In this document: positions 7,812-16,034 of the stretch, piece after piece
Layout: each line of letters begins with the position of its first letter
Numbering within the stretch: the first letter of the stretch is position 1
From: Naegleria gruberi
Lineage: Eukaryota
DNA length: 64,000 nt
Reading direction: 5' to 3' (one strand)
NCBI GenBank assembly: GCA_000004985.1
Contig: GG738868.1
The notes under the pieces: model-generated
What the model saw: the letters and a program-made list of their open reading frames with translations, nothing else
What the model was told of the DNA's origin: nothing
Database searches by the model: none
Position numbers and translations under genes: made by a program

Positions 7812-10800
7812 TTAATCCAAATCATATTCCTGATCAGATGGAGAGGAAGGTCGTGAACCTGAGGTTCCAGATGGTGTAACTTCTGATGACTTTTCTGGTG
7901 GGCTATCAACATCAGTTTCAACACGATATTTGGATGTAGTCGTTGTGGTTGTTGAATGGTCTGCAACTGTTTCAGTAAATTCATCCTCTTCTAACAAGTC
8001 AGTATCATTATTCAACATTGGTTGAATTTGAATGTCTCTGGCATATTCCATTTCAACATTGTGAATTTCAGAAGAAATTGCTTTGGCCAATCTTTCAGCA
8101 TCATCTGGGAATGGAATATGATAGGATTCTCTGTTTTGAGAGAGCAATTGTTGCTTCAGACTCTTAATTTCAGCATTGGTACTCTTGAGCAATTGTGTCT
8201 TTTGTTGGACAAGTTCCAAAAATTCTGGTGATGAATTCTCTTGTTTCTCAAGTGCCTTGAGTTCCTTTCTGATATTATAATTTCGGAAAATAACATGTCC
8301 TTGCAGGTATTGCCAATAGCTGATAATTTCCTCAATTTCTTGTTGGGAGCAATAGTGTTGAATTCTAACATTGTTGCCATTGATATACGTTGGGAAATAA
8401 TTCAAAATCTTATCCATAACAAAATCGTTTGTGGAGAGAGTACTATTCCAAACAAGAGGAAGATACTCAATCGAGTATTTGATCCAATTCATAGCTTCCT
8501 TGAAATTCTTTGAAATTGTCTTTAAACCTCTTGAATAAATTTGTTGTAAACAGACAGCAGTGTATGTGAGAATATCCTTCTCTCTACTTAATTTCTTATC
8601 TCCATGTAATTCTGTGAGCTCCTTATCATAAATAATACCCATCAAGAATGAGCTAATAGATCTATCAAATGTCTTTCTGTACAAATAATGCAATCCATAA
8701 TGATACCAAGTTGCAACAAAGCAGAATAATGAGTACAACTCATTCAAAGAAGATACCACCTTGGTATTTGGTATGTCATCCACAGTCAAGTTCACAAGTG
8801 CCATGTATTCGTTGAATTTGTTTTGATCGGATTTTTCAGAGCTTGCACACAAATCCAAGAGCTTTCTCTGGAAGAGTGAGTAGAATACTTGATCGGCAAT
8901 GGTATACTTCATTGGAACAATTTGATCTATGGCACAGAGGAACACTGGATAGTTGGCAATTCTTGCATCATACTGCAAGGACATGGAGTAAGTGTAAGTG
9001 CTATTGACCTGACCTTGACAGAGTTGGAAGCACTTATTGCAGAGCTCATTATATTGGTGTTGGAATTGCTTCTTCTCCCTTTCTCTCTTTTCCTTTTGTT
9101 GTTCAATATAAATATTAAGCTCCTCAATAAACTTTTTGTTTTGGAAATTCAATTCGTCCTGAACCTCTTTTGGAATGATAGCTCTCCATCTCTCAATGGA
9201 TATTTCCATGAGAACATCTCTGTAAGTTTTAGGATAATCGGCGATAATTTGCTCAAGCGAATCAACTTCGAGTCCAGAGTGCTCTGTTGGAATTTTTTCT
9301 TCAACGGTGGCAGGTTTAGCTTCTTGATCATTATGTTCTTCATTATGATGGTGGTGATGTCCACTGCAACAGCCATGATGGTGGTGATGATGGTGATGAT
9401 GATCATCATGACAGCTGTCTGCCTTCTTCAATTTCTTCAAGGATTCCTTGAGCTCCTTGATATTCTGCTCGATAGAATCTTGGAGATGCTTATCCTTTGA
9501 AATAAAGTCTTTCTCTTCCAAATTAACTCTACTATTATCCACATATAAGAGGCAGTAAGCACTAGAGTTGATATCCTTGTCAATACCACTTGAAGTTCTC
9601 ATGACTTCCTCTTCAGTAACCTCAGTCACCTTCATATCATTGAATTTCCACCAACAATTTTGACCTGTATCAAAATAGTAAATGTAATAATGTCCGCTCG
9701 AAGCCAAGCTTCCTTCATGAACTAGAATACCACACAGATCGTATGGTTTCTCCTTCATATCATCGAACATGGTAGCAACATTTTCTTTGAGAGTATCGAT
9801 TTCATTCTTTAACTTTTCAACCTTTTTAGAAACTTGTTGTCTTATATTCTCAAATACCTTGACAGCACTTTCAATAGATTGAACAGAGGTACCTCCTGAT
9901 AGCTCGTGTTGATATTGAGCTACATATTCGAGAGCGCCTGCAAATAAATATTCAATGGAAATTCCCTTATTATCATTATAATTTAAATAGCCATCTAATT
10001 GTTTTTCCAAATCTGCAATCTTTTGTTTGATTTGTTTGATATTTTCTCGTTTAGTTGTAGTTTCTTTGGTTGTGTAAAGGAATTGTGAAATGATAATAAA
10101 ACTTACTAACTTTGTTCGTCTCCAGATATCTATCCAAATAAATCACCTCTTGGAATTCAAATGGTAGATTAATCTTGTGAGCAACCTTTTTGGTAGTATC
10201 AAAAGAGGTTCTTTGGAGTTGAACTAATAATACAGGTGGTGGTGTTTTAAACCAGGTAGTTTTTACAGCTTTTGTCTTGTAAGATGTGCTGACAGCATAA
10301 TCTGCAACCTCAGTGATAGAATAATCATCGAGAGAAGAATAAAAATCTTTCAGCTGTTCACTCACATTCAAAATTAAATTACAAAGTTCAGAGTATTTAC
10401 TGATACAGACTTTTGTTGACTCTGTATCCAAATACTCCAACTCTTCTGTACAGATACCATAGAAAATTTGTTTGATTGGGTTTTCAAGACTGATATTGTT
10501 GGTCTTGTTCTCGATTTTTTCTTCCCATTCCTCTGAGAACATTCTCTCAAGTAGGATCAAAACCTTACTATAGAATTCTATTAAAGTAAATGTTTTTTGA
10601 GTATGATTAGTAATATTGACAACGTACCACTAATATCTTCTTGATGTCCAAGATTGACATCAATTCCCTCCTTTGAAAGAGCCTCTACAAGAGGAGATGG
10701 ATCAATAAATGTCTTGTTAGTCATGATCATACTTGCAAACAATTTTTGAGATTCCTTAATGAATGTCACTATATTATTATTAGTCCAATAAAATCTCTAA

Positions 10801-11860
10801 TTGATATATACTTACAATCCTTATCTGCTTGCTTTTGTAAATTCTCATTAGAGTAAACTTGTTGATGTTGAGTAATCCTCTTATCTGTTGTTGCACTACT
10901 TGTAGTGGTTAATGATTTTTCAATCTTTGCTTGAACTCTACTCATAAAACTCTCCTCAGAAAATGAGAATAACAATTGTTTCAACTTGGGAATCATAAAA
11001 AGTGCTTGAAATAACGAATTGACATAACAAGTATTTCCAATATTTTTCAATCCAATAGGAACATGTAGTTGTTTTCTATATTTCTCAATAGGAGATTTTG
11101 GTTCAGAATCTCGTTTTTGATCTTGTAATGATGCTTCAATGGCTCTATTGAGTGCATCATCTTCAAAGCTAGTATTATTTGATGATGAGAATTGTCTATT
11201 ATTTTTGTTATTATTATTCGTTGAAAAGTAATCATCATCGGTATTGTGTCTATTATTATTAACAGTTGTCGGAGAGAGTTGATCAAAGGATGTATCAAAG
11301 TAGAAATCATCATTTCTATGACTATTGCTAATTACAGTGTCATCCTCAAGGTTTGGCATATCAGGATCATCAATATGCTTTTCTTCTTCTTGTTCATGAT
11401 GATGATGTTGATTGTGATGATGTTTAAATTCATTATTAGAAGTGTACATGACTGGAGAGACTTCTCCACTTGTTGTAGCAGTTGTGGAATCATCAGAATC
11501 ATAATTATATCTATTTACTACATCATCTGCTGCAGAGTGATGATGGTGATGATGATTAGATCCTCCATACACAACTGTATCATCAATTGTAGGTTCATCT
11601 TCATGATGATGGTGATGATGAACAACAGCTACTTGATTATTAGACTGCTGATCATTCTCCATCGATAATACACTCGGATCATCCGAAGCTGCCAATAACA
11701 AATCGAAGGCTCTCTCAACATTATTATTGCATTTCCTCAAGGCCTGTATTGCCTGATCTCTCCCAAAACCAGCATCTACAATCTGACTGATGGAATCCTC
11801 ATTGATCGGTGACGACGACGGATACATCATTGAATTTCCGTAGCTGCTACTGAGAGGCAT
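7812..11860 (-). CDS. Ubiquitin carboxyl-terminal hydrolase, USP25/USP28-like (N-terminal UBA, split USP catalytic domain, long C-terminal region)
   Basis: Four exons joined by short introns: about 10064-10106 (43 nt), 10578-10627 (50 nt) and 10769-10815 (47 nt), with GTAAGT/GTACGT donors. N-terminal UBA-like segment (SISQIVDAGFGRDQAIQALRKCNNNVERAFDLLL). Cys box GLKNIGNTCYVNSLFQALF. QQD-like box QEDISGEFYSKVLILLERMF. His box GILVHEGSLASSGHYYIYY...AYCLLYV. His-rich inserts (HHHHHHHHHGCCSGHHHHH). Exon phases are consistent across all junctions. Confidence 0.8.
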
Positions 11861-12009
11861 TTTATTTATGGATTACTGGTTCCTCACAGAAAGTGCATTG
11901 TGGTAATTGTGAAGAAAGAACACAATCAAGTTCTTTACCAAATGTAACAATATGATAATTGGTAACAAGTTGTATTTTCTCTTGTGAAAGAAGGATAGTA
12001 TTTGAATCA

Positions 12010-14410
12010 TTATTTAATGAACCCTTTTAATTGTTTGTAGGTCTTTGATACTCCTCTTATGGAAATAGAGGATTGTGATAATTTCAATGAAAATTTACCA
12101 ACCAAGTGACCAGTCATGACAATTTTATCTGGATTACGTCCATCAGTTTGCACAAATGGAACAAGATAACATTTGCCTGCTCTAAGAACTAATTCATCAG
12201 TGTAAGTGGAATTGTTACACTTAATAACCTTAGATTCAGATCCAGTTGCCACCACCACATCATTCTGAACAACAATGAAAGAGAAGAAGGTTGGTTTGGC
12301 TTGCCCTATATCCTTTCTGAAACGTTTTCCAAGTTGATGAAGACCAAAGTAGGCATCATGTTGATTCTCTCCAATGTCTACACAAATTACAGGATATGAA
12401 GAAGAATCCTGAACAGGAAAGCTTTGCATTGGTACTGAAATATCTGATCTGAAATAAGATGGTTCATATCTACAAAGTGAAATAGTATCAAACCAACTCA
12501 AAAAATCATTAAAAGACATAAAGAAACGTCCATCATCAGCATCACTATAACCAGCCTCTCTCTTCATCTCAACAGTCCAACTATGGAAATTGGTTAATTG
12601 AATCTTGAAAAAAGTTAACTTACTTTGGATCTCGGTCACTCCAAGCTCCTGTCCATTCTCCTTTACCCCAAGGATTTCTTATGTACACTAATTTGAGGTT
12701 TCTCACTTCCTTACATGCAAGGAAAGCATACGCATGGTTTGCAACAAGACCCATCTTGTTACATCCATTATCATCATCTATTGTACTGCAACAGATAAAG
12801 TTATTCTTCTTTACAGCATCAATCAATTGCTTCCACAATTGATCCTTATTCTTTTGATTCTTTACAAAAATATTATGAGATGGATAACCTGTTAACAATT
12901 CAAAAGCCTCAATTGGGTTACCTCCTTCAATATTCAAGTAATACCCACATACTTTAGAGTAGGCTTTTTCAAGTGCAATAACCCACAACTCTGGAGACTT
13001 GTTATATGCAAATAGAGGCGTTCTAGTTCCATTTCTAACTGGGAAGTAATCATCAATGATGACCTTTCTGAACTCACCCCCTATACAAAGATTCAACTCA
13101 TAAATACCCACTGGATTCATTATTTTGGTAGAGAACAATCTTTCAATGAGGATTGGTTCTCTGGCTATGCACGAGAGAGCTGACAAGAAGTAGCAATCTC
13201 CAAGCGATCCCTGTTTAATATCATCAGGCTCAATACCATCGTGGAAAAGAGCAAACTTGGGACCAAGCATTTCTGGAGCTCTCATAAATGTGCACTCTGG
13301 ATAACTCTTTTGATTAGGACCCAATATCGATTTTGCATTTGGAGGAAAGTCAGCATCATTAAATGGTACTCCAGCATTAATTGCATTTATAACTTGCTTA
13401 CTGATAACTCTGAGTGTAGCAAAACTTTCCAAAGCTTTTCTGATGTTGTCATTCTTTTGACTATTGTCCAAAATTTCACCATATCTACACTCTGAAATGA
13501 AAGCAGAAAATTCCTTGTCTTCTCTCAATGAATTGATTCTTTGGTCCATAGCATGAGCTTCATTGTACATAATTTCGGCAATCTTCTTCTGAATGCCTGA
13601 ATATCTCTTTACCAACAATCTCATAGCCGTGAATCTTTTTCTATCTATATATTCCAAGTGTGATAAAATATTTCCTAGATACATGTCAAATGTTTCCTTT
13701 TCCGTATAATATTCCTTAATTGCTTGATTGTTTTCCTGTTCAATCTTAACAAGCTGCCTTTCACAATCTTTAATAGTATTTTCTAGCTGTCTTGTCTCAT
13801 CTTCTGTAAGTGATGGATTGCTCTGCAATTCAGTCGTTGAATCTTGAAGAAGAATTTTATGTTTGAAAGCCTTATTTTTCACTCCATCCAATTTCTTTAT
13901 ACATTTTTTCAATCTAGCATGACATAGAGCTTCTTCTTTCTTGGCGGTCTTAATATGTTTTAGCAAGTCTTTCTTCAATTGAGTCAAATCAACATTAACC
14001 ATATGAAAATCATTATCTGTTTTTTTATATTCTTCACCTAGGTTCCCAAGACTAGCAGCTAATTTGTCAAAAACACCATAATCTTCACTGTTATGATGAT
14101 TGAACAATCATGCATTTCAATTATAAAAATAACAGATTAAAGAATTAGCATTAACTACTTACTCTATTCGACTTTGTACCTTTATGAGAGATATTTGATG
14201 GTATTCATTGGCCATGTTCTTGTACATCTTTTTTGTTTTCTCTACAATCTTATGAAAATGCCCGATTTCTACCAAGTATTTATTCAATTGCTGAATAACC
14301 TCAGGAAATTTATCTTTCAAAGCGAGGGAGTAGGGCGTATTAGAGCCACTATCGAAATCAACATTCGGTTCAACAGCATACAACTGCGGTTTTGCCATGA
14401 CTGCACCCAT
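12010..14410 (-). CDS. Calpain-like cysteine protease (CysPc plus domain-III-like) with an approximately 330-aa N-terminal coiled-coil/BAR-like extension and a predicted N-myristoylation start
   Basis: Three exons: 14163-14410 (MGAVMAKPQLYAVEP...VQSRI), 12624-14087 and 12010-12580. Introns at about 14088-14162 (75 nt, GTAAGT...AACAG) and about 12581-12623 (43 nt, GTAAGT...CCATAG). The catalytic core carries the Cys motif (QGSLGDCYFLSALSCIA), the His region (GLVANHAYAF) and the NPWG motif. The post-splice junction DPN-WTVEMKREAGYSDADDGRFFMSFNDFLSWF matches the canonical calpain end of domain II. The domain-III-like C-terminus follows. Confidence 0.8.
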
Positions 14411-14513
14411 TTTTTTTAATTGGGGAAAACAAAAACGGGAGCAACCAGACTGTTCATTAAGGAAGGGTTTCTAATTCGGCCACAAATCGCCTTTGATTTT
14501 TTACCGTATGTCG

Positions 14514-14749
14514 AGGATCATTATAAGGGGTTATATAAAGAGAACTTTTTTCTAAAGGCATTCAACGGATTTAATTTTATGCAAGCGTTTTTTAAGTATA
14601 ATTCATACTGTTTGATTTCAATACTATGATACTGACCTAATAGCGAAATATCTTGATTGTCAAATATCATGTCAGATTGATAACGTTCGTACCCGCGTAC
14701 AATGATTATTACAATGGTAAAAACCGTCGAGGATCATATTAATAAGGTG
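14514..14749. repeat. Pair of roughly 26-bp imperfect direct repeats (ccgt(atg)tcgaggatcat(t)ataa(t)aagg) spaced about 210 bp apart in the calpain/alpha-SNAP intergenic region
   Basis: Copies at about 14514-14530 and 14724-14749. Relatively GC-rich islands in an AT-rich spacer. Confidence 0.3.
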
Positions 14750-14786
14750 TTTAAAATACTATAAATTTATTTAGTTTGTACAAAAA

Positions 14787-15680
14787 TTATGTGAGATCGA
14801 TAGTCTTGATCTTATCCTTGATCTGGAGGAAAAGATTGGTCTTCCATGTATCTAATTTTTGGATCTTGTCGAAATCTCTTAAAGTAATAGTATATGTCTT
14901 TACATTCTTCTCTTCACAGGCATCTGCAAGTTTTTCAATTAATTTACATTCGAGAGAATCACCAAAGTGAACGTCCATGTCCTTGTATTCGGAAATCTTA
15001 TTTCTAACTTCATTAATATCCTCTGGTTCACATTCTTCCAACTTGGCCATGATACAAATCAATGCCTTGAATAAATATTCCTTTGCTCCCCATTTCAATA
15101 ATCTGTCATCAACAGCTGCTGAAGCAGCCTTTTCAAAATGTTCAATAGCCTCATCAAACTTTCCCATAACAGCTTGTAAGTGAGCCAATTTTACAATACA
15201 TTGATTAGCACTACTCTTTTGATCTTCGGAAAGGAAATAATCAGCAGCAGAAGAATAGTGATTACAAGCATTTTCATAATCTTCGGCTTCTTCTAATACT
15301 TCAGCCATTTCCTTTTCATATTTTGCAACTGTGGCAAATTTACCAGCTTCGGTAAATAAACCTATTGCTTCATTAATACATTCGGTTGTTTCTTGTTTGA
15401 GTCCGGCTTGTTTATAACAATTTGATGCATCAATAGCAACGGTGGCAGCTTCATATTTACTACTCATCTTGAGCAAAAGAGGAACCATCTTTCTGAAAGT
15501 ATCTCCGGCCTCCTTCCAAGCTTTAGCAACCTTGAATTTATTAGCAGCAGTTCTATAGGCTTCACAGGCATCATCATTTCTGCTACCCAGATAAATGAAT
15601 TTGGTCAAAATACTGTCTCCCTTCTTGCAAAGCTCCATTGCTTGAGCGACGTTTGCTTCCTTCAATGAACCACTACTCAT
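14787..15680 (-). CDS. Alpha-soluble NSF attachment protein (alpha-SNAP / Sec17)
   Basis: The 297-aa single-exon ORF aligns along its whole length with alpha-SNAP (KEAGDTFRKM..., ECKLIEKLADACEEKNVKTYT, DTWKTNLFLQIKDKI). ATG at 15678-15680. Confidence 0.85.
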   Translation of the reverse strand: MSSGSLKEANVAQAMELCKKGDSILTKFIYLGSRNDDACEAYRTAANKFKVAKAWKEAGDTFRKMVPLLLKMSSKYEAATVAIDASNCYKQAGLKQETTECINEAIGLFTEAGKFATVAKYEKEMAEVLEEAEDYENACNHYSSAADYFLSEDQKSSANQCIVKLAHLQAVMGKFDEAIEHFEKAASAAVDDRLLKWGAKEYLFKALICIMAKLEECEPEDINEVRNKISEYKDMDVHFGDSLECKLIEKLADACEEKNVKTYTITLRDFDKIQKLDTWKTNLFLQIKDKIKTIDLT

Positions 15681-15849
15681 TTTTTATATTATTAATTTAT
15701 AATAAAAACAAAACGGATAAAATTATTAGATGAGGTCATTTGGTATTCGTTGGAAAGCGGATGATGAAGTAATTACATCAGCAACACAATTTTTTGAAAT
15801 TGAAGATAGTCTTTTACTCTGCTTCAATACTGATAGTTTGTTGTTTGAA

Positions 15850-15864
15850 TTTTCCGCCAATTAA
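15850..15864. promoter_or_regulatory. Second copy of the TTTTCCGCCAATTAA element, in the divergent promoter between alpha-SNAP and the Pro-rich gene
   Basis: 14 of 15 positions identical to the element at 2739-2755. Lies about 175-185 bp from both flanking start codons. Confidence 0.3.
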
Positions 15865-16034
15865 TATCGTTACATTTTATGAATAAAAATCATCTAAAAA
15901 AAATATTCAACCTCGTTTGCTTCTCTCTTCTTTCATATTAAGATTCTGAATCACAATCTTATTAGTTGCAGCGACGGTCCTTCATCATCATCATCAACAT
16001 TATTAATTTGCTATTGGATTTCAAATAATTAAGG

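What the first reader, a model, noticed from the sequence alone, without database searches (positions are those of the whole stretch)
12010..14410. Calpain with an N-myristoylation-type start and a roughly 330-residue coiled-coil/BAR-like N-terminal module
The catalytic calpain core begins only around residue 330.

A 75-nt GTAAGT...AACAG intron joins it in frame to an upstream exon starting MGAVMAKPQ. A Gly2 followed by small residues forms a myristoylation-type signal.

Together with exon 2, this gives a long helical region (EVIQQLNKYLVEIGHFHKIVEKTKKMYKNMANEYHQISLIKV...KEYYTEKETFDMYLGNILSHLEYIDRKRF). It resembles an FCH/BAR or other membrane-associated coiled coil.

Known calpain N-terminal modules are MIT, zinc-finger or C2 domains. 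A lipid-anchored coiled-coil or BAR-like calpain would be an unusual membrane-targeted protease architecture. The upstream ORF is terminated by the TAA inside the GTAAGT donor, a pattern seen at other verified junctions in this window.
Basis: partly seen in the sequence, partly recalled or inferred. Interest (0 to 1): 0.5.

Follow-up and report, generated by a model that had tools for sequence, protein, structure and literature searches.

The report
Naegleria calpain with F-BAR membrane module
This is a known but uncharacterised Naegleria gruberi gene encoding an apparently active calpain protease. Its first ~290 residues form a previously unrecognised F-BAR (membrane-curvature-binding) domain headed by a conserved N-myristoylation-type signal, so the protease is probably placed on membranes.

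Summary
The spliced 760-aa protein is identical to the public N. gruberi model XP_002677185 / D2VFD5 (NAEGRDRAFT_67588, "predicted protein").

- **Splice.** It is supported by an intron at the same position and phase in three homologous loci. In a 98.9%-identical environmental contig, the only indels within the gene are 1-nt indels in the two introns.
- **Calpain core.** Residues 325-608 match Peptidase_C2 (E=4e-74). The triad C381/H534/N554 is intact.
- **N-terminal module.** It gives no significant direct Pfam hit but is an F-BAR domain.
  - A profile of it and its closest relatives matches Heterolobosean F-BAR+2xSH3 proteins (hhalign 99.5%, E=1e-22).
  - Those proteins hit only solved F-BAR domains (GAS7 3e-19, FBP17 2e-17).
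- **Myristoylation signal.** All eight full-length N-termini in this clade start with Met-Gly. None of the 11 F-BAR-SH3 relatives checked does.
- **Origin.** The four F-BAR calpains with usable cores form one clade (98/100 bootstraps). Three of the six fusion genes found have lost the catalytic Cys.

A 2012 calpain survey listed this protein as "CysPc only". Acylated calpains are already known. The F-BAR fusion appears undescribed: a new variant of a known kind, of moderate interest. Membrane binding, dimerisation and acylation are inferred, not shown.

The parts
12010..14410 (-). Whole coding region of N. gruberi NAEGRDRAFT_67588 (760 aa; three exons, two introns; stop codon TAA at 12012..12010)
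   Evidence: Assembled. Exact match to XP_002677185.1 / D2VFD5. Coordinates re-verified.
14390..14410 (-). Start codon and N-myristoylation-type signal MGAVMAK (Gly2, Ala6, Lys7)
   Evidence: It is the first ATG after an in-frame stop, in the context AAAAAAAATGG. It matches PROSITE PS00008 at the N-terminus. Met-Gly is conserved in all full-length clade members.
14163..14410 (-). Exon 1 (residues 1-82 plus two bases of codon 83). It encodes the acylation signal and the first long F-BAR helix (FCH part).
   Evidence: It aligns with the N-terminal FCH part of P0126 and of the F-BAR-SH3 proteins. hhalign of this region alone gives E=2.8e-5, probability 74%. There are no differences from L002.
14088..14162 (-). 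Intron 1: 75 nt, GTAAGT...AACAG, phase 2
   Evidence: There is a 1-nt indel and one substitution relative to L002. An intron at the same position and phase occurs in L004, L005 and L001.
12624..14087 (-). Exon 2 (last base of codon 83, residues 84-570 and two bases of codon 571). One uninterrupted ORF encodes most of the F-BAR domain and most of the calpain core.
   Evidence: ORF 12620..14107. Because both domains lie in one ORF, the F-BAR-calpain fusion does not depend on any splice.
13466..14338 (-). F-BAR domain, residues ~25-290 (includes intron 1). Predicted helices span residues 88-172, 178-268 and 272-286, plus the exon-1 helix.
13364..13465 (-). Linker, residues 291-324, with two short predicted helices (294-308, 313-321). 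It aligns only among the calpain-fused members.
   Evidence: Model (lower pLDDT of 51-81). Alignment columns 301-353.
12469..13363 (-). Calpain catalytic core (CysPc, Peptidase_C2), residues 325-608 (includes intron 2). Catalytic residues: Cys381 (13195..13193), His534 (12736..12734), Asn554 (12676..12674).
   Evidence: Pfam E=4e-74. Alignment to human calpain-1 core, E=3.7e-40, with GDC, HAY and RNPWG aligned. Codons verified. Listed as C,H,N intact in PMC3563603 supplement.
12581..12623 (-). Intron 2: 43 nt, GTAAGT...ATAG, phase 2
   Evidence: There is a 1-nt indel and one substitution relative to L002.
12013..12468 (-). C-terminal domain, residues 609-760. It is a conserved post-CysPc domain shared by many protist calpains, possibly a divergent calpain-III/C2-like domain.
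   Evidence: jackhmmer finds it after the core in more than 60 calpains. Only one member matches Pfam Calpain_III (E=1e-6). There is no match to solved structures.

Best explanation
The locus is N. gruberi gene NAEGRDRAFT_67588. Its architecture is: N-myristoylation-type signal, F-BAR domain (~25-290), short helical linker (291-324), calpain protease core (325-608, triad intact), conserved C-terminal domain (609-760).

Shown here:
- the gene model;
- the calpain core and its catalytic triad;
- homology and fold similarity of the N-terminal module to F-BAR domains;
- conservation of the Met-Gly start;
- a single evolutionary origin of the fusion in Naegleria and its relatives, followed by duplication into triad-intact and Cys-less paralogues.

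Inferred mechanism:
- After removal of Met1, N-myristoyltransferase acylates Gly2.
- The F-BAR module forms the usual antiparallel dimer.
- Lipid anchor and F-BAR together hold two protease cores on anionic, curved membrane. Candidate sites are the plasma membrane at endocytic or phagocytic cups, pseudopods, the cleavage furrow or the contractile vacuole.
- There, a local Ca2+ rise would activate limited proteolysis of membrane-proximal substrates.
- Five of the six Ca2+-ligand side chains of the classical protease core appear conserved, so Ca2+ control through the core is plausible.
- There is no EF-hand (PEF) or recognisable C2 domain, so the F-BAR would take over the membrane-targeting role.
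For: **Gene model.**

**Organism.** The neighbouring alpha-SNAP ORF is an exact match to N. gruberi XP_002677186.

**Calpain.** Peptidase_C2 E=4e-74. Calpain-1 core E=3.7e-40 with the Cys/His/Asn motifs aligned.

**F-BAR, sequence.**
- A profile built only from this protein and P0002 found 26 proteins among 1.84 billion. They include F-BAR+2xSH3 proteins of Acrasis and Naegleria at E=2.5e-17 and 4e-16.
- 7 of 24 hits match Pfam GMIP-like_FCH, 1 matches FCH and 13 match SH3.
- Own-clade profile against the F-BAR-SH3 profile: hhalign 99.5%, E=1.4e-22 over 209 columns.
- The F-BAR-SH3 profile against the PDB: all 26 hits are F-BAR domains, covering almost the whole domain (GAS7 3e-19, FBP17 1.6e-17, PSTPIP1, Imp2, Cdc15, syndapin, CIP4, FCHo2).

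**F-BAR, fold.**

**Acylation signal.** Met-Gly starts all eight full-length N-termini: this protein, L004 MGSGSSK, L005 MGNKPVK, P0157 MGNKATK, P0126, P0156, P0153 and P0164. None of the 11 F-BAR-SH3 proteins checked has it.

**Single origin.** The four F-BAR calpains are monophyletic in 98/100 NJ bootstraps of 58 cores.

**Precedents for acylated calpains.** PMC2746569, PMC4587752.
Against: - The protein itself gives no significant Pfam FCH/BAR hit (best is BAR_4, E=0.17).
- A profile of its own clade alone does not reach solved F-BAR structures (syndapin E=0.17, among coiled-coil noise). The assignment therefore rests on a transitive link plus predicted folds.
- Homology of the exon-1 region alone is modest (probability 74%).
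- The net charge of the module is only mildly basic (pI 8.4-8.6).
- Dimerisation, lipid binding, acylation, Ca2+ dependence and proteolysis were not and could not be tested.
- Residue 6 is Ala rather than the preferred Ser/Thr, and one paralogue (L005) fails the pattern.
- PS00008 is a low-specificity pattern.
- Glu333 of the classical Ca2+ switch is Arg here (residue list from memory of Moldoveanu et al. 2002).
Confidence: 0.78

Rival explanations
1. The N-terminal module descends from F-BAR but no longer binds membrane. It would serve as a dimerisation or protein-scaffolding stalk, and the calpain would act in the cytosol or on the cytoskeleton.
For: - Pfam matches among relatives are mostly to GMIP-like_FCH rather than classical FCH.
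- The module is only mildly basic (pI 8.4-8.6).
- The sequence is too divergent for direct detection.
- Three of the six fusion genes found lack the catalytic Cys, which suggests scaffold roles.
Against: - The Met-Gly start is conserved across calpain-fused and stand-alone paralogue groups that share only ~20-40% identity. That is hard to explain without membrane association.
- The K-rich stretch KxAKKEEKKL on the first long exon-2 helix is conserved with the F-BAR-SH3 proteins.
Confidence: 0.17
2. The protein is not N-myristoylated. The MGAVMAK match would be fortuitous, or translation would start at Met5 (MAKPQ).
For: - PS00008 is a short, frequent pattern.
- Residue 6 is Ala, not Ser/Thr.
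- A prokaryotic gene caller started the exon-1 ORF of a near-identical contig at Met5 (P0147).
- L005 (MGNKPVK) fails the pattern.
- No N-myristoyltransferase evidence for Naegleria was retrieved.
Against: - Met1 is the first ATG after an in-frame stop and sits in an A-rich, +4 G context.
- Gly2 is present in 8 of 8 full-length clade N-termini and in 0 of 11 F-BAR-SH3 relatives.
- The public model uses Met1.
Confidence: 0.2
3. Gene-model artefact: exon 1 does not belong to this transcript. The protein would then start within exon 2, lacking the acylation signal and the first F-BAR helix.
For: - No transcript data could be examined here.
- The bacterial-style ORF call P0001 starts at a TTG inside the intron.
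Against: - Exon 2 has no ATG before residue 112.
- Annotated relatives P0126, P0156 and P0157 encode the exon-1 and exon-2 equivalents contiguously, including DEGEYGVFGKV against IDEDYGVFDKL.
- The intron position and phase are conserved in three other loci.
- The indel pattern in L002 marks the 75 nt as non-coding and exon 1 as constrained.
Confidence: 0.03
4. The N-terminal region is a generic coiled coil unrelated to BAR domains, and the similarity is compositional.
For: - Single-sequence and own-clade searches against the PDB return only coiled-coil noise such as spike HR1, BST2 and haemagglutinin.
Against: - Collinear, near-full-length profile matches have E-values far beyond compositional bias.
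- Conserved non-heptad motifs are present (NILSHLEYIDRKRF, EEKEF..FI).
Confidence: 0.03

Closest known systems
F-BAR (EFC) domain proteins: FBP17/CIP4, PSTPIP1, GAS7, Cdc15/Imp2/Hof1, PACSIN/syndapin. The nearest relatives are the F-BAR+2xSH3 proteins of Heterolobosea (e.g. N. fowleri FDP41_009000, Acrasis kona AKO1_012135).
   Same: - Homologous N-terminal domain of about 270 residues with the same order of helices.
- It shares the FCH-type start (Y..L.DKF), the K-rich helix and the C-terminal 'EEKE(I/F)..FI' element.
- The predicted fold matches solved F-BAR monomers.
   Different: - The effector is a cysteine protease, not SH3, RhoGAP, kinase or muHD modules.
- It carries an N-terminal Met-Gly acylation signal that the F-BAR-SH3 relatives checked lack.
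- It lacks the 'PPP..FEPY' tail of those relatives.
- It is too divergent for Pfam FCH.
- Dimerisation and membrane bending are untested.
N-acylated calpains and calpain-like proteins: Plasmodium falciparum calpain (myristoyl-Gly2, palmitoyl-Cys3/22) and Trypanosoma brucei CAP5.5 (myristoylated and palmitoylated)
   Same: - A calpain-type core preceded by a long lineage-specific N-terminal region that starts with an acylation signal (PMC2746569; PMC4587752).
- The kinetoplastid proteins, like the Naegleria Cys-less paralogues, include catalytically dead members.
   Different: - No F-BAR was reported in the papers read. Kinetoplastid calpains carry DUF1935 (PMC3563603).
- This protein has no Cys in the first 16 residues for palmitoylation, so a second membrane signal would have to come from the F-BAR.
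- Acylation is only predicted here.
Membrane-anchored calpains of the DEK1/TML type
   Same: A calpain core tethered to membrane by an N-terminal module (PMC10762896; PMC3563603).
   Different: DEK1-type proteins are integral, with many transmembrane segments. This one would be a peripheral protein that may sense curvature. It has no recognisable C2L by Pfam.
Stand-alone Naegleria proteins of the same clade: N. gruberi NAEGRDRAFT_79910, N. lovaniensis C9374_014250, N. fowleri FDP41_010694 and FDP41_013293 (the last named 'BAR domain-containing protein' in UniRef)
   Same: Same Met-Gly start and the same divergent F-BAR-like domain, at 22-26% identity, including the NILSHLE(Y/F)IDRKRF motif.
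   Different: They end after the F-BAR domain, with no protease.

Membership tests
Calpain (peptidase family C2, CysPc core) | Significant match to the CysPc / Peptidase_C2 domain over its full length | tested here: met
   PF00648 E=4e-74, 249.8 bits against a cut-off of 23.8, profile positions 1-297 of 297. Human calpain-1 core E=3.7e-40.
Calpain (peptidase family C2, CysPc core) | Catalytic triad Cys-His-Asn in the conserved motifs | tested here: met
   C381 (GDC), H534 (NHAY) and N554 (RNPWG) align with C115, H272 and N296 of calpain-1. The protein is listed as 'C,H,N' in PMC3563603 supplement.
Calpain (peptidase family C2, CysPc core) | Ca2+-binding residues of the protease core (two sites) | tested here: inconclusive
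   In the alignment, the equivalents of D106, E185, E302, D309 and D331 are conserved. E333 is Arg and R104 is Pro. The residue list is from memory of Moldoveanu et al. 2002 and was not checked against a source.
Calpain (peptidase family C2, CysPc core) | Ca2+-dependent proteolytic activity | not testable with these tools
   Needs an enzyme assay.
F-BAR / EFC domain | Direct significant match to a curated FCH/F-BAR model | tested here: not met
   There is no PF00611 or PF22699 hit for this protein. The best is BAR_4 at E=0.17, 12.1 bits against a cut-off of 27. An own-clade profile against the PDB gives syndapin E=0.17.
F-BAR / EFC domain | Homology to bona fide F-BAR domains by profile methods | tested here: met
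   The link is transitive. Own clade to F-BAR-SH3 proteins: HMMER E=2.5e-17 in 1.84 billion proteins and hhalign 99.5%, E=1.4e-22. F-BAR-SH3 profile to solved F-BAR domains only: 3e-19 to 9e-5, near full length.
F-BAR / EFC domain | Monomer fold: three long helices in an elongated bundle plus a short C-terminal helix | tested here: met
F-BAR / EFC domain | Antiparallel crescent-shaped homodimer | not testable with these tools
   No multimer prediction was available.
F-BAR / EFC domain | Cationic membrane-binding face; binding or tubulation of anionic membranes | not tested
   Only bulk charge was computed (pI 8.4-8.6, 46 K+R against 43 D+E in residues 25-290). The surface was not mapped.
N-myristoylated proteins (NMT substrates) | Gly at position 2 of the true translation start | tested here: met
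   MGAVMAK at the first ATG after an in-frame stop. The same start is used in the public model. The transcription start is not known.
N-myristoylated proteins (NMT substrates) | Permissive residues at positions 3-7 (PROSITE PS00008; Ser/Thr preferred at position 6) | tested here: met
   The pattern is matched. Position 6 is Ala (allowed, not optimal) and position 7 is Lys. The pattern has low specificity.
N-myristoylated proteins (NMT substrates) | Conservation of the signal in orthologues and paralogues | tested here: met
   Met-Gly occurs in 8 of 8 full-length clade N-termini, of which 7 fit the pattern. It occurs in 0 of 11 F-BAR-SH3 relatives.
N-myristoylated proteins (NMT substrates) | Covalent myristate on Gly2 | not testable with these tools
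   Needs labelling or mass spectrometry.

The most novel reading that the evidence does not exclude
Naegleria uses a dedicated curvature-sensing protease system. Myristoylated F-BAR modules would dimerise, possibly as heterodimers of the triad-intact calpain with its Cys-less paralogue or with the stand-alone myristoylated F-BAR proteins. They would assemble on curved membrane and so switch local, Ca2+-gated proteolysis on or off. Protease activity would then be controlled by membrane shape, a mode of calpain regulation not described elsewhere.
Probability: 0.15. Interest if true: 0.7.

Novelty: new variant of a known kind. Interest (0 to 1): 0.42.

Why it matters
Calpains are usually brought to membranes by C2-like or penta-EF-hand domains, transmembrane regions or acylation. 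A calpain fused to an F-BAR domain would link limited proteolysis directly to membrane curvature and phosphoinositide-rich sites.

It also shows that a protein catalogued as 'CysPc only' in the main survey of protist calpains carries a hidden, structured 290-residue domain. Such surveys therefore undercount architectures.

The family is confined, as far as seen, to Naegleria and close relatives. It is also present in the pathogen N. fowleri, at least as the Cys-less paralogue. It could therefore bear on amoeboid feeding, motility or cytokinesis in that group. The practical impact is modest until localisation and activity are tested.

Tried and rejected
- **Direct N-terminal searches.** Pfam and PDB sequence searches with the N-terminal 322 residues gave nothing significant.
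- **First word-indexed homologue search.** It found only the same gene and one relative.
- **Third word-indexed search, with an alignment.** It scored only 8000 candidates and added little.
- **Other calpains' N-termini.** None of the 120 nearest calpains has a similar N-terminus.
- **Own-clade profile against the PDB.** It returned coiled-coil noise.
- The representative search and structure prediction both rejected it. I modelled residues 84-322 and a full-length relative instead.
- **MAFFT alignment A8.** It mis-split the exon-1 fragment, so I discarded it.
- **Rfam scan of the window.** No hits.
- **Bacterial promoter/terminator scan.** No better than shuffles, and irrelevant for a eukaryote.
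- **Literature searches.** PRJEB11402 and NAEGRDRAFT_67588 gave no papers. 'calpain' plus 'F-BAR' gave only unrelated co-mentions. The 'Naegleria' plus 'N-myristoyltransferase' paper concerns the Plasmodium enzyme.
- **First bootstrap script.** It timed out and I rewrote it.
- **C-terminal domain profile.** It found no solved structure.
- **Organisms considered from composition.** I considered a ciliate or an amoebozoan. Both were rejected once the exact N. gruberi matches appeared.
Full report
**What is in the sequence**

The finding lies on the minus strand. Reading 15000..11500 and assembling the exons gives this structure:
- Exon 1: 14410..14163, starting MGAVMAKPQ.
- Intron 1: 14162..14088, 75 nt, GTAAGT...AACAG, phase 2.
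- Exon 2: 14087..12624.
- Intron 2: 12623..12581, 43 nt, GTAAGT...ATAG, phase 2.
- Exon 3: 12580..12010, ending TAA.

The product is 760 aa. The ATG at 14410 is the first after an in-frame stop 21 codons upstream. It sits in the context AAAAAAAATGG.

**Whose gene it is**

The neighbouring intron-less ORF 14790..15680(-) is an exact match to N. gruberi alpha-SNAP-like protein XP_002677186. The spliced 760-aa protein is an exact match to EFC44441.1 / XP_002677185.1 / UniProt D2VFD5, NAEGRDRAFT_67588, "predicted protein".

The main survey of protist calpains lists this accession as "CysPc", 760 aa, catalytic residues "C,H,N" (PMC3563603, supplementary file 1). The N-terminal 320 residues were therefore treated as domain-less. 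That paper's text mentions no FCH, BAR or SH3 domain among its 24 partner domains.

**Independent support for the splice**

- Contig L002 comes from an environmental metagenome and is 98.9% identical to the window. Within the gene, its only indels are single-base indels in intron 1 (14116) and intron 2 (12614). Exon 1 has no change, exon 2 has 11 substitutions and exon 3 has 3.
- Three homologous genes have an intron at the equivalent codon and in the same phase: L004 (42 nt), L005 (71 nt) and L001 (56 nt).
- Annotated relatives encode the exon-1 and exon-2 equivalents as one continuous sequence. One example is ...DEGEYGVFGKV... in N. lovaniensis against ...IDEDYGVFDKL... here.
- The fusion of helical module and protease does not depend on splicing at all. 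Residues 84-570 lie in a single ORF.

**The protease**

- Pfam Peptidase_C2 covers residues 325-608 (E=4e-74).
- The core aligns with human calpain-1 at E=3.7e-40. GDC, NHAY and RNPWG align with the catalytic Cys115, His272 and Asn296.
- The triad here is C381, H534, N554.
- Of the six side chains that bind Ca2+ in the classical core, five are conserved in that alignment (D106, E185, E302, D309, D331). E333 is Arg. The residue list is from my memory of Moldoveanu et al. 2002, so this point is only suggestive.
- Residues 609-760 form a domain that follows the core in more than 60 other protist calpains. Only one of those matches Pfam Calpain_III. A profile of the domain finds no solved structure. 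Its nature remains open.

**The N-terminal module: sequence evidence**

On its own it is nearly invisible:
- Pfam gives only BAR_4 at E=0.17.
- The PDB sequence search gives nothing meaningful.
- The word-indexed protein search finds only the same gene and one relative, P0002.
- None of the 120 nearest calpains has a similar N-terminus.

An exhaustive HMMER search then found 26 proteins. It used a profile built only from window residues 84-322 and P0002, run against 1.84 billion representatives. The hits fall into three groups:
- Calpain fusions: P0122, P0123 and P0124, plus P0001 and P0002.
- Stand-alone proteins of about 290-330 aa: P0125, P0126, P0136, P0137.
- Proteins with the same domain followed by two SH3 domains, down to E=2.5e-17.

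Named members come from N. gruberi, N. fowleri, N. lovaniensis, Acrasis kona and Pharyngomonas. Among 24 hits, 13 carry SH3 domains, 7 match Pfam GMIP-like_FCH and 1 matches FCH.

The link to solved F-BAR domains was built in two steps:
- A profile of the calpain-fused and stand-alone proteins (A6) matches a profile of the SH3-bearing proteins (A10). hhalign gives 99.5%, E=1.4e-22 over 209 columns.
- A10 searched against all PDB sequences returns 26 hits below 1e-3. Every one is an F-BAR domain and most are covered almost end to end: GAS7 3e-19, FBP17 1.6e-17, PSTPIP1, Imp2, Cdc15, syndapin, CIP4, PACSIN1-3, FCHo2, Rgd1, Syp1.

The exon-1 region aligns with the FCH start of these proteins (Y..L.DKF...). 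Taken alone it gives a modest hhalign E=2.8e-5, probability 74%.

The weak point is that the own-clade profile alone does not reach F-BAR structures (syndapin E=0.17). The sequence link is therefore transitive.

**The N-terminal module: fold evidence**

I modelled two substitutes.

Window residues 84-322, with a 26-row alignment:
- pLDDT is 89.5. The model has helices of 85 and 91 residues in a hairpin, then three short helices.
- The nine best Foldseek matches are all F-BAR/EFC domains (FBP17, CIP4, PACSIN2, PSTPIP1; TM up to 0.66).

Full-length stand-alone relative P0126 (N. lovaniensis, ~25% identical):
- pLDDT is 82.5, with helices 34-70, 89-173, 180-270 and 274-288.
- The next 23 matches are all BAR-superfamily folds. 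The first unrelated structure scores 10.7.

Sequence and fold evidence together show that the module is a divergent F-BAR domain, about residues 25-290. Residues 291-324 form a linker with two short helices that aligns only among the calpain-fused members.

**The acylation signal**

MGAVMAK fits PROSITE PS00008 when anchored at the N-terminus. That pattern is weak evidence by itself, and Ala at position 6 is allowed rather than optimal.

The comparative picture is stronger. All eight full-length N-termini in the clade begin with Met-Gly, and seven fit the pattern:
- this protein (MGAVMAK);
- L004 (MGSGSSK);
- L005 (MGNKPVK), the one that fails the pattern;
- N. fowleri P0157 (MGNKATK);
- the stand-alone proteins P0126, P0156, P0153 and P0164.

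None of the 11 F-BAR-SH3 relatives checked starts with Met-Gly. These paralogue groups share only about 20-40% identity, so the signal is under selection. There is no Cys in the first 16 residues for palmitoylation. A second membrane-affinity element is therefore expected, and the F-BAR would supply it.

**Evolution**

In an NJ tree of 58 calpain cores, the four F-BAR calpains with usable cores form an exclusive clade. They are this protein, P0124, P0122 and P0157. The clade appears in 98 of 100 bootstraps. That indicates one fusion event followed by duplication.

- This protein and P0124 keep GDC(Y/W)F.
- P0157/P0123 (NDAW), P0122 (HDNF) and the L001 gene (ENTW) have lost the catalytic Cys.

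**Most likely mechanism**

The architecture is shown. The rest is inferred from what F-BAR domains and myristoyl anchors are known to do.
- Co-translational myristoylation of Gly2 and antiparallel F-BAR dimerisation would place two protease cores on anionic, curved membrane.
- Ca2+ would then activate the core for local limited proteolysis.
- The Cys-less paralogues and the stand-alone myristoylated F-BAR proteins could co-assemble and modulate this.

I put about 0.9 on the architecture, about 0.6 on membrane targeting and 0.78 overall.

**Comparison with what is known**

- Acylated calpains already exist. P. falciparum calpain is myristoylated at Gly2 and palmitoylated (PMC2746569). T. brucei CAP5.5 is myristoylated and palmitoylated (PMC4587752).
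- Integral-membrane calpains of the DEK1 type are reviewed in PMC10762896.
- I found no description of an F-BAR-calpain fusion. 'calpain' plus 'F-BAR' returns only co-mentions. Three recent calpain reviews contain no F-BAR, FCH or BAR-domain term, and the trypanosomatid review no acylation term. 'Naegleria' plus 'F-BAR' gives nothing relevant.
- UniRef already names one stand-alone relative 'BAR domain-containing protein'. Automated pipelines may therefore partly see the fold. I could not check InterPro for D2VFD5.

**Verdict**

The gene itself is already public. The new element is the recognition of a myristoylation-signal-bearing F-BAR module on a triad-intact calpain, with a small lineage-restricted family around it. 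This is a new variant of known kinds, of moderate interest.

Noticed in passing
L001:1-1291; L005:1-2936; P0157 (N. fowleri FDP41_013378, 936 aa): A paralogous branch of F-BAR calpains has lost the catalytic Cys (ENTW, HDNF and NDAW in place of GDCY). It keeps the Met-Gly start (seen where the 5' end is available, in L005 and P0157) and the intron position. These are probably pseudoproteases. N. gruberi D2VGX6 (875 aa, 'None' for catalytic residues in PMC3563603) may be the local copy; this was not verified.
   Followed up: partly
P0126, P0156, P0153/P0136, P0164 (Naegleria spp.): Naegleria has a family of stand-alone ~290-330 aa proteins with a Met-Gly myristoylation-type start and the same divergent F-BAR-like domain. 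They are the closest relatives of the calpain's N-terminal module. One is named 'BAR domain-containing protein' in UniRef.
   Followed up: partly
window 12013-12468 (-): The C-terminal 152 residues are a conserved post-core domain found in more than 60 protist calpains. Pfam does not recognise it here and it has no solved-structure match. Only one relative matches Calpain_III. It may be a very divergent C2-like domain.
   Followed up: partly
window 13364-13465 (-): The linker between F-BAR and protease (residues 291-324) has two short predicted helices. It aligns only among the calpain-fused members. It may pack on the core like the anchor helix of classical calpains.
   Followed up: no
window 10051-11860 (-): The downstream gene encodes a possible UBA-like N-terminus (by eye), long His-rich and Asn-rich tracts, and a ubiquitin-hydrolase-type Cys box (GLKNIGNTCYVNSLFQ). 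It apparently continues through further short introns. The L002 allele has in-frame 3-nt indels in the His-rich tracts.
   Followed up: no
window 14787-15680 (-): The upstream neighbour is an intron-less alpha-SNAP homologue (Pfam SNAP), an exact match to N. gruberi XP_002677186. It is separated from the calpain start by 376 nt.
   Followed up: yes
L002 (ERR1078381 / PRJEB11402) against window 11090-15948: An environmental metagenome holds a contig 98.9% identical to this N. gruberi region. It has a 10-nt deletion in the 3' intergenic region (11980-11989) and one amino-acid change in the calpain (K to R in VISKQV). A close N. gruberi strain is therefore present in that sample.
   Followed up: partly
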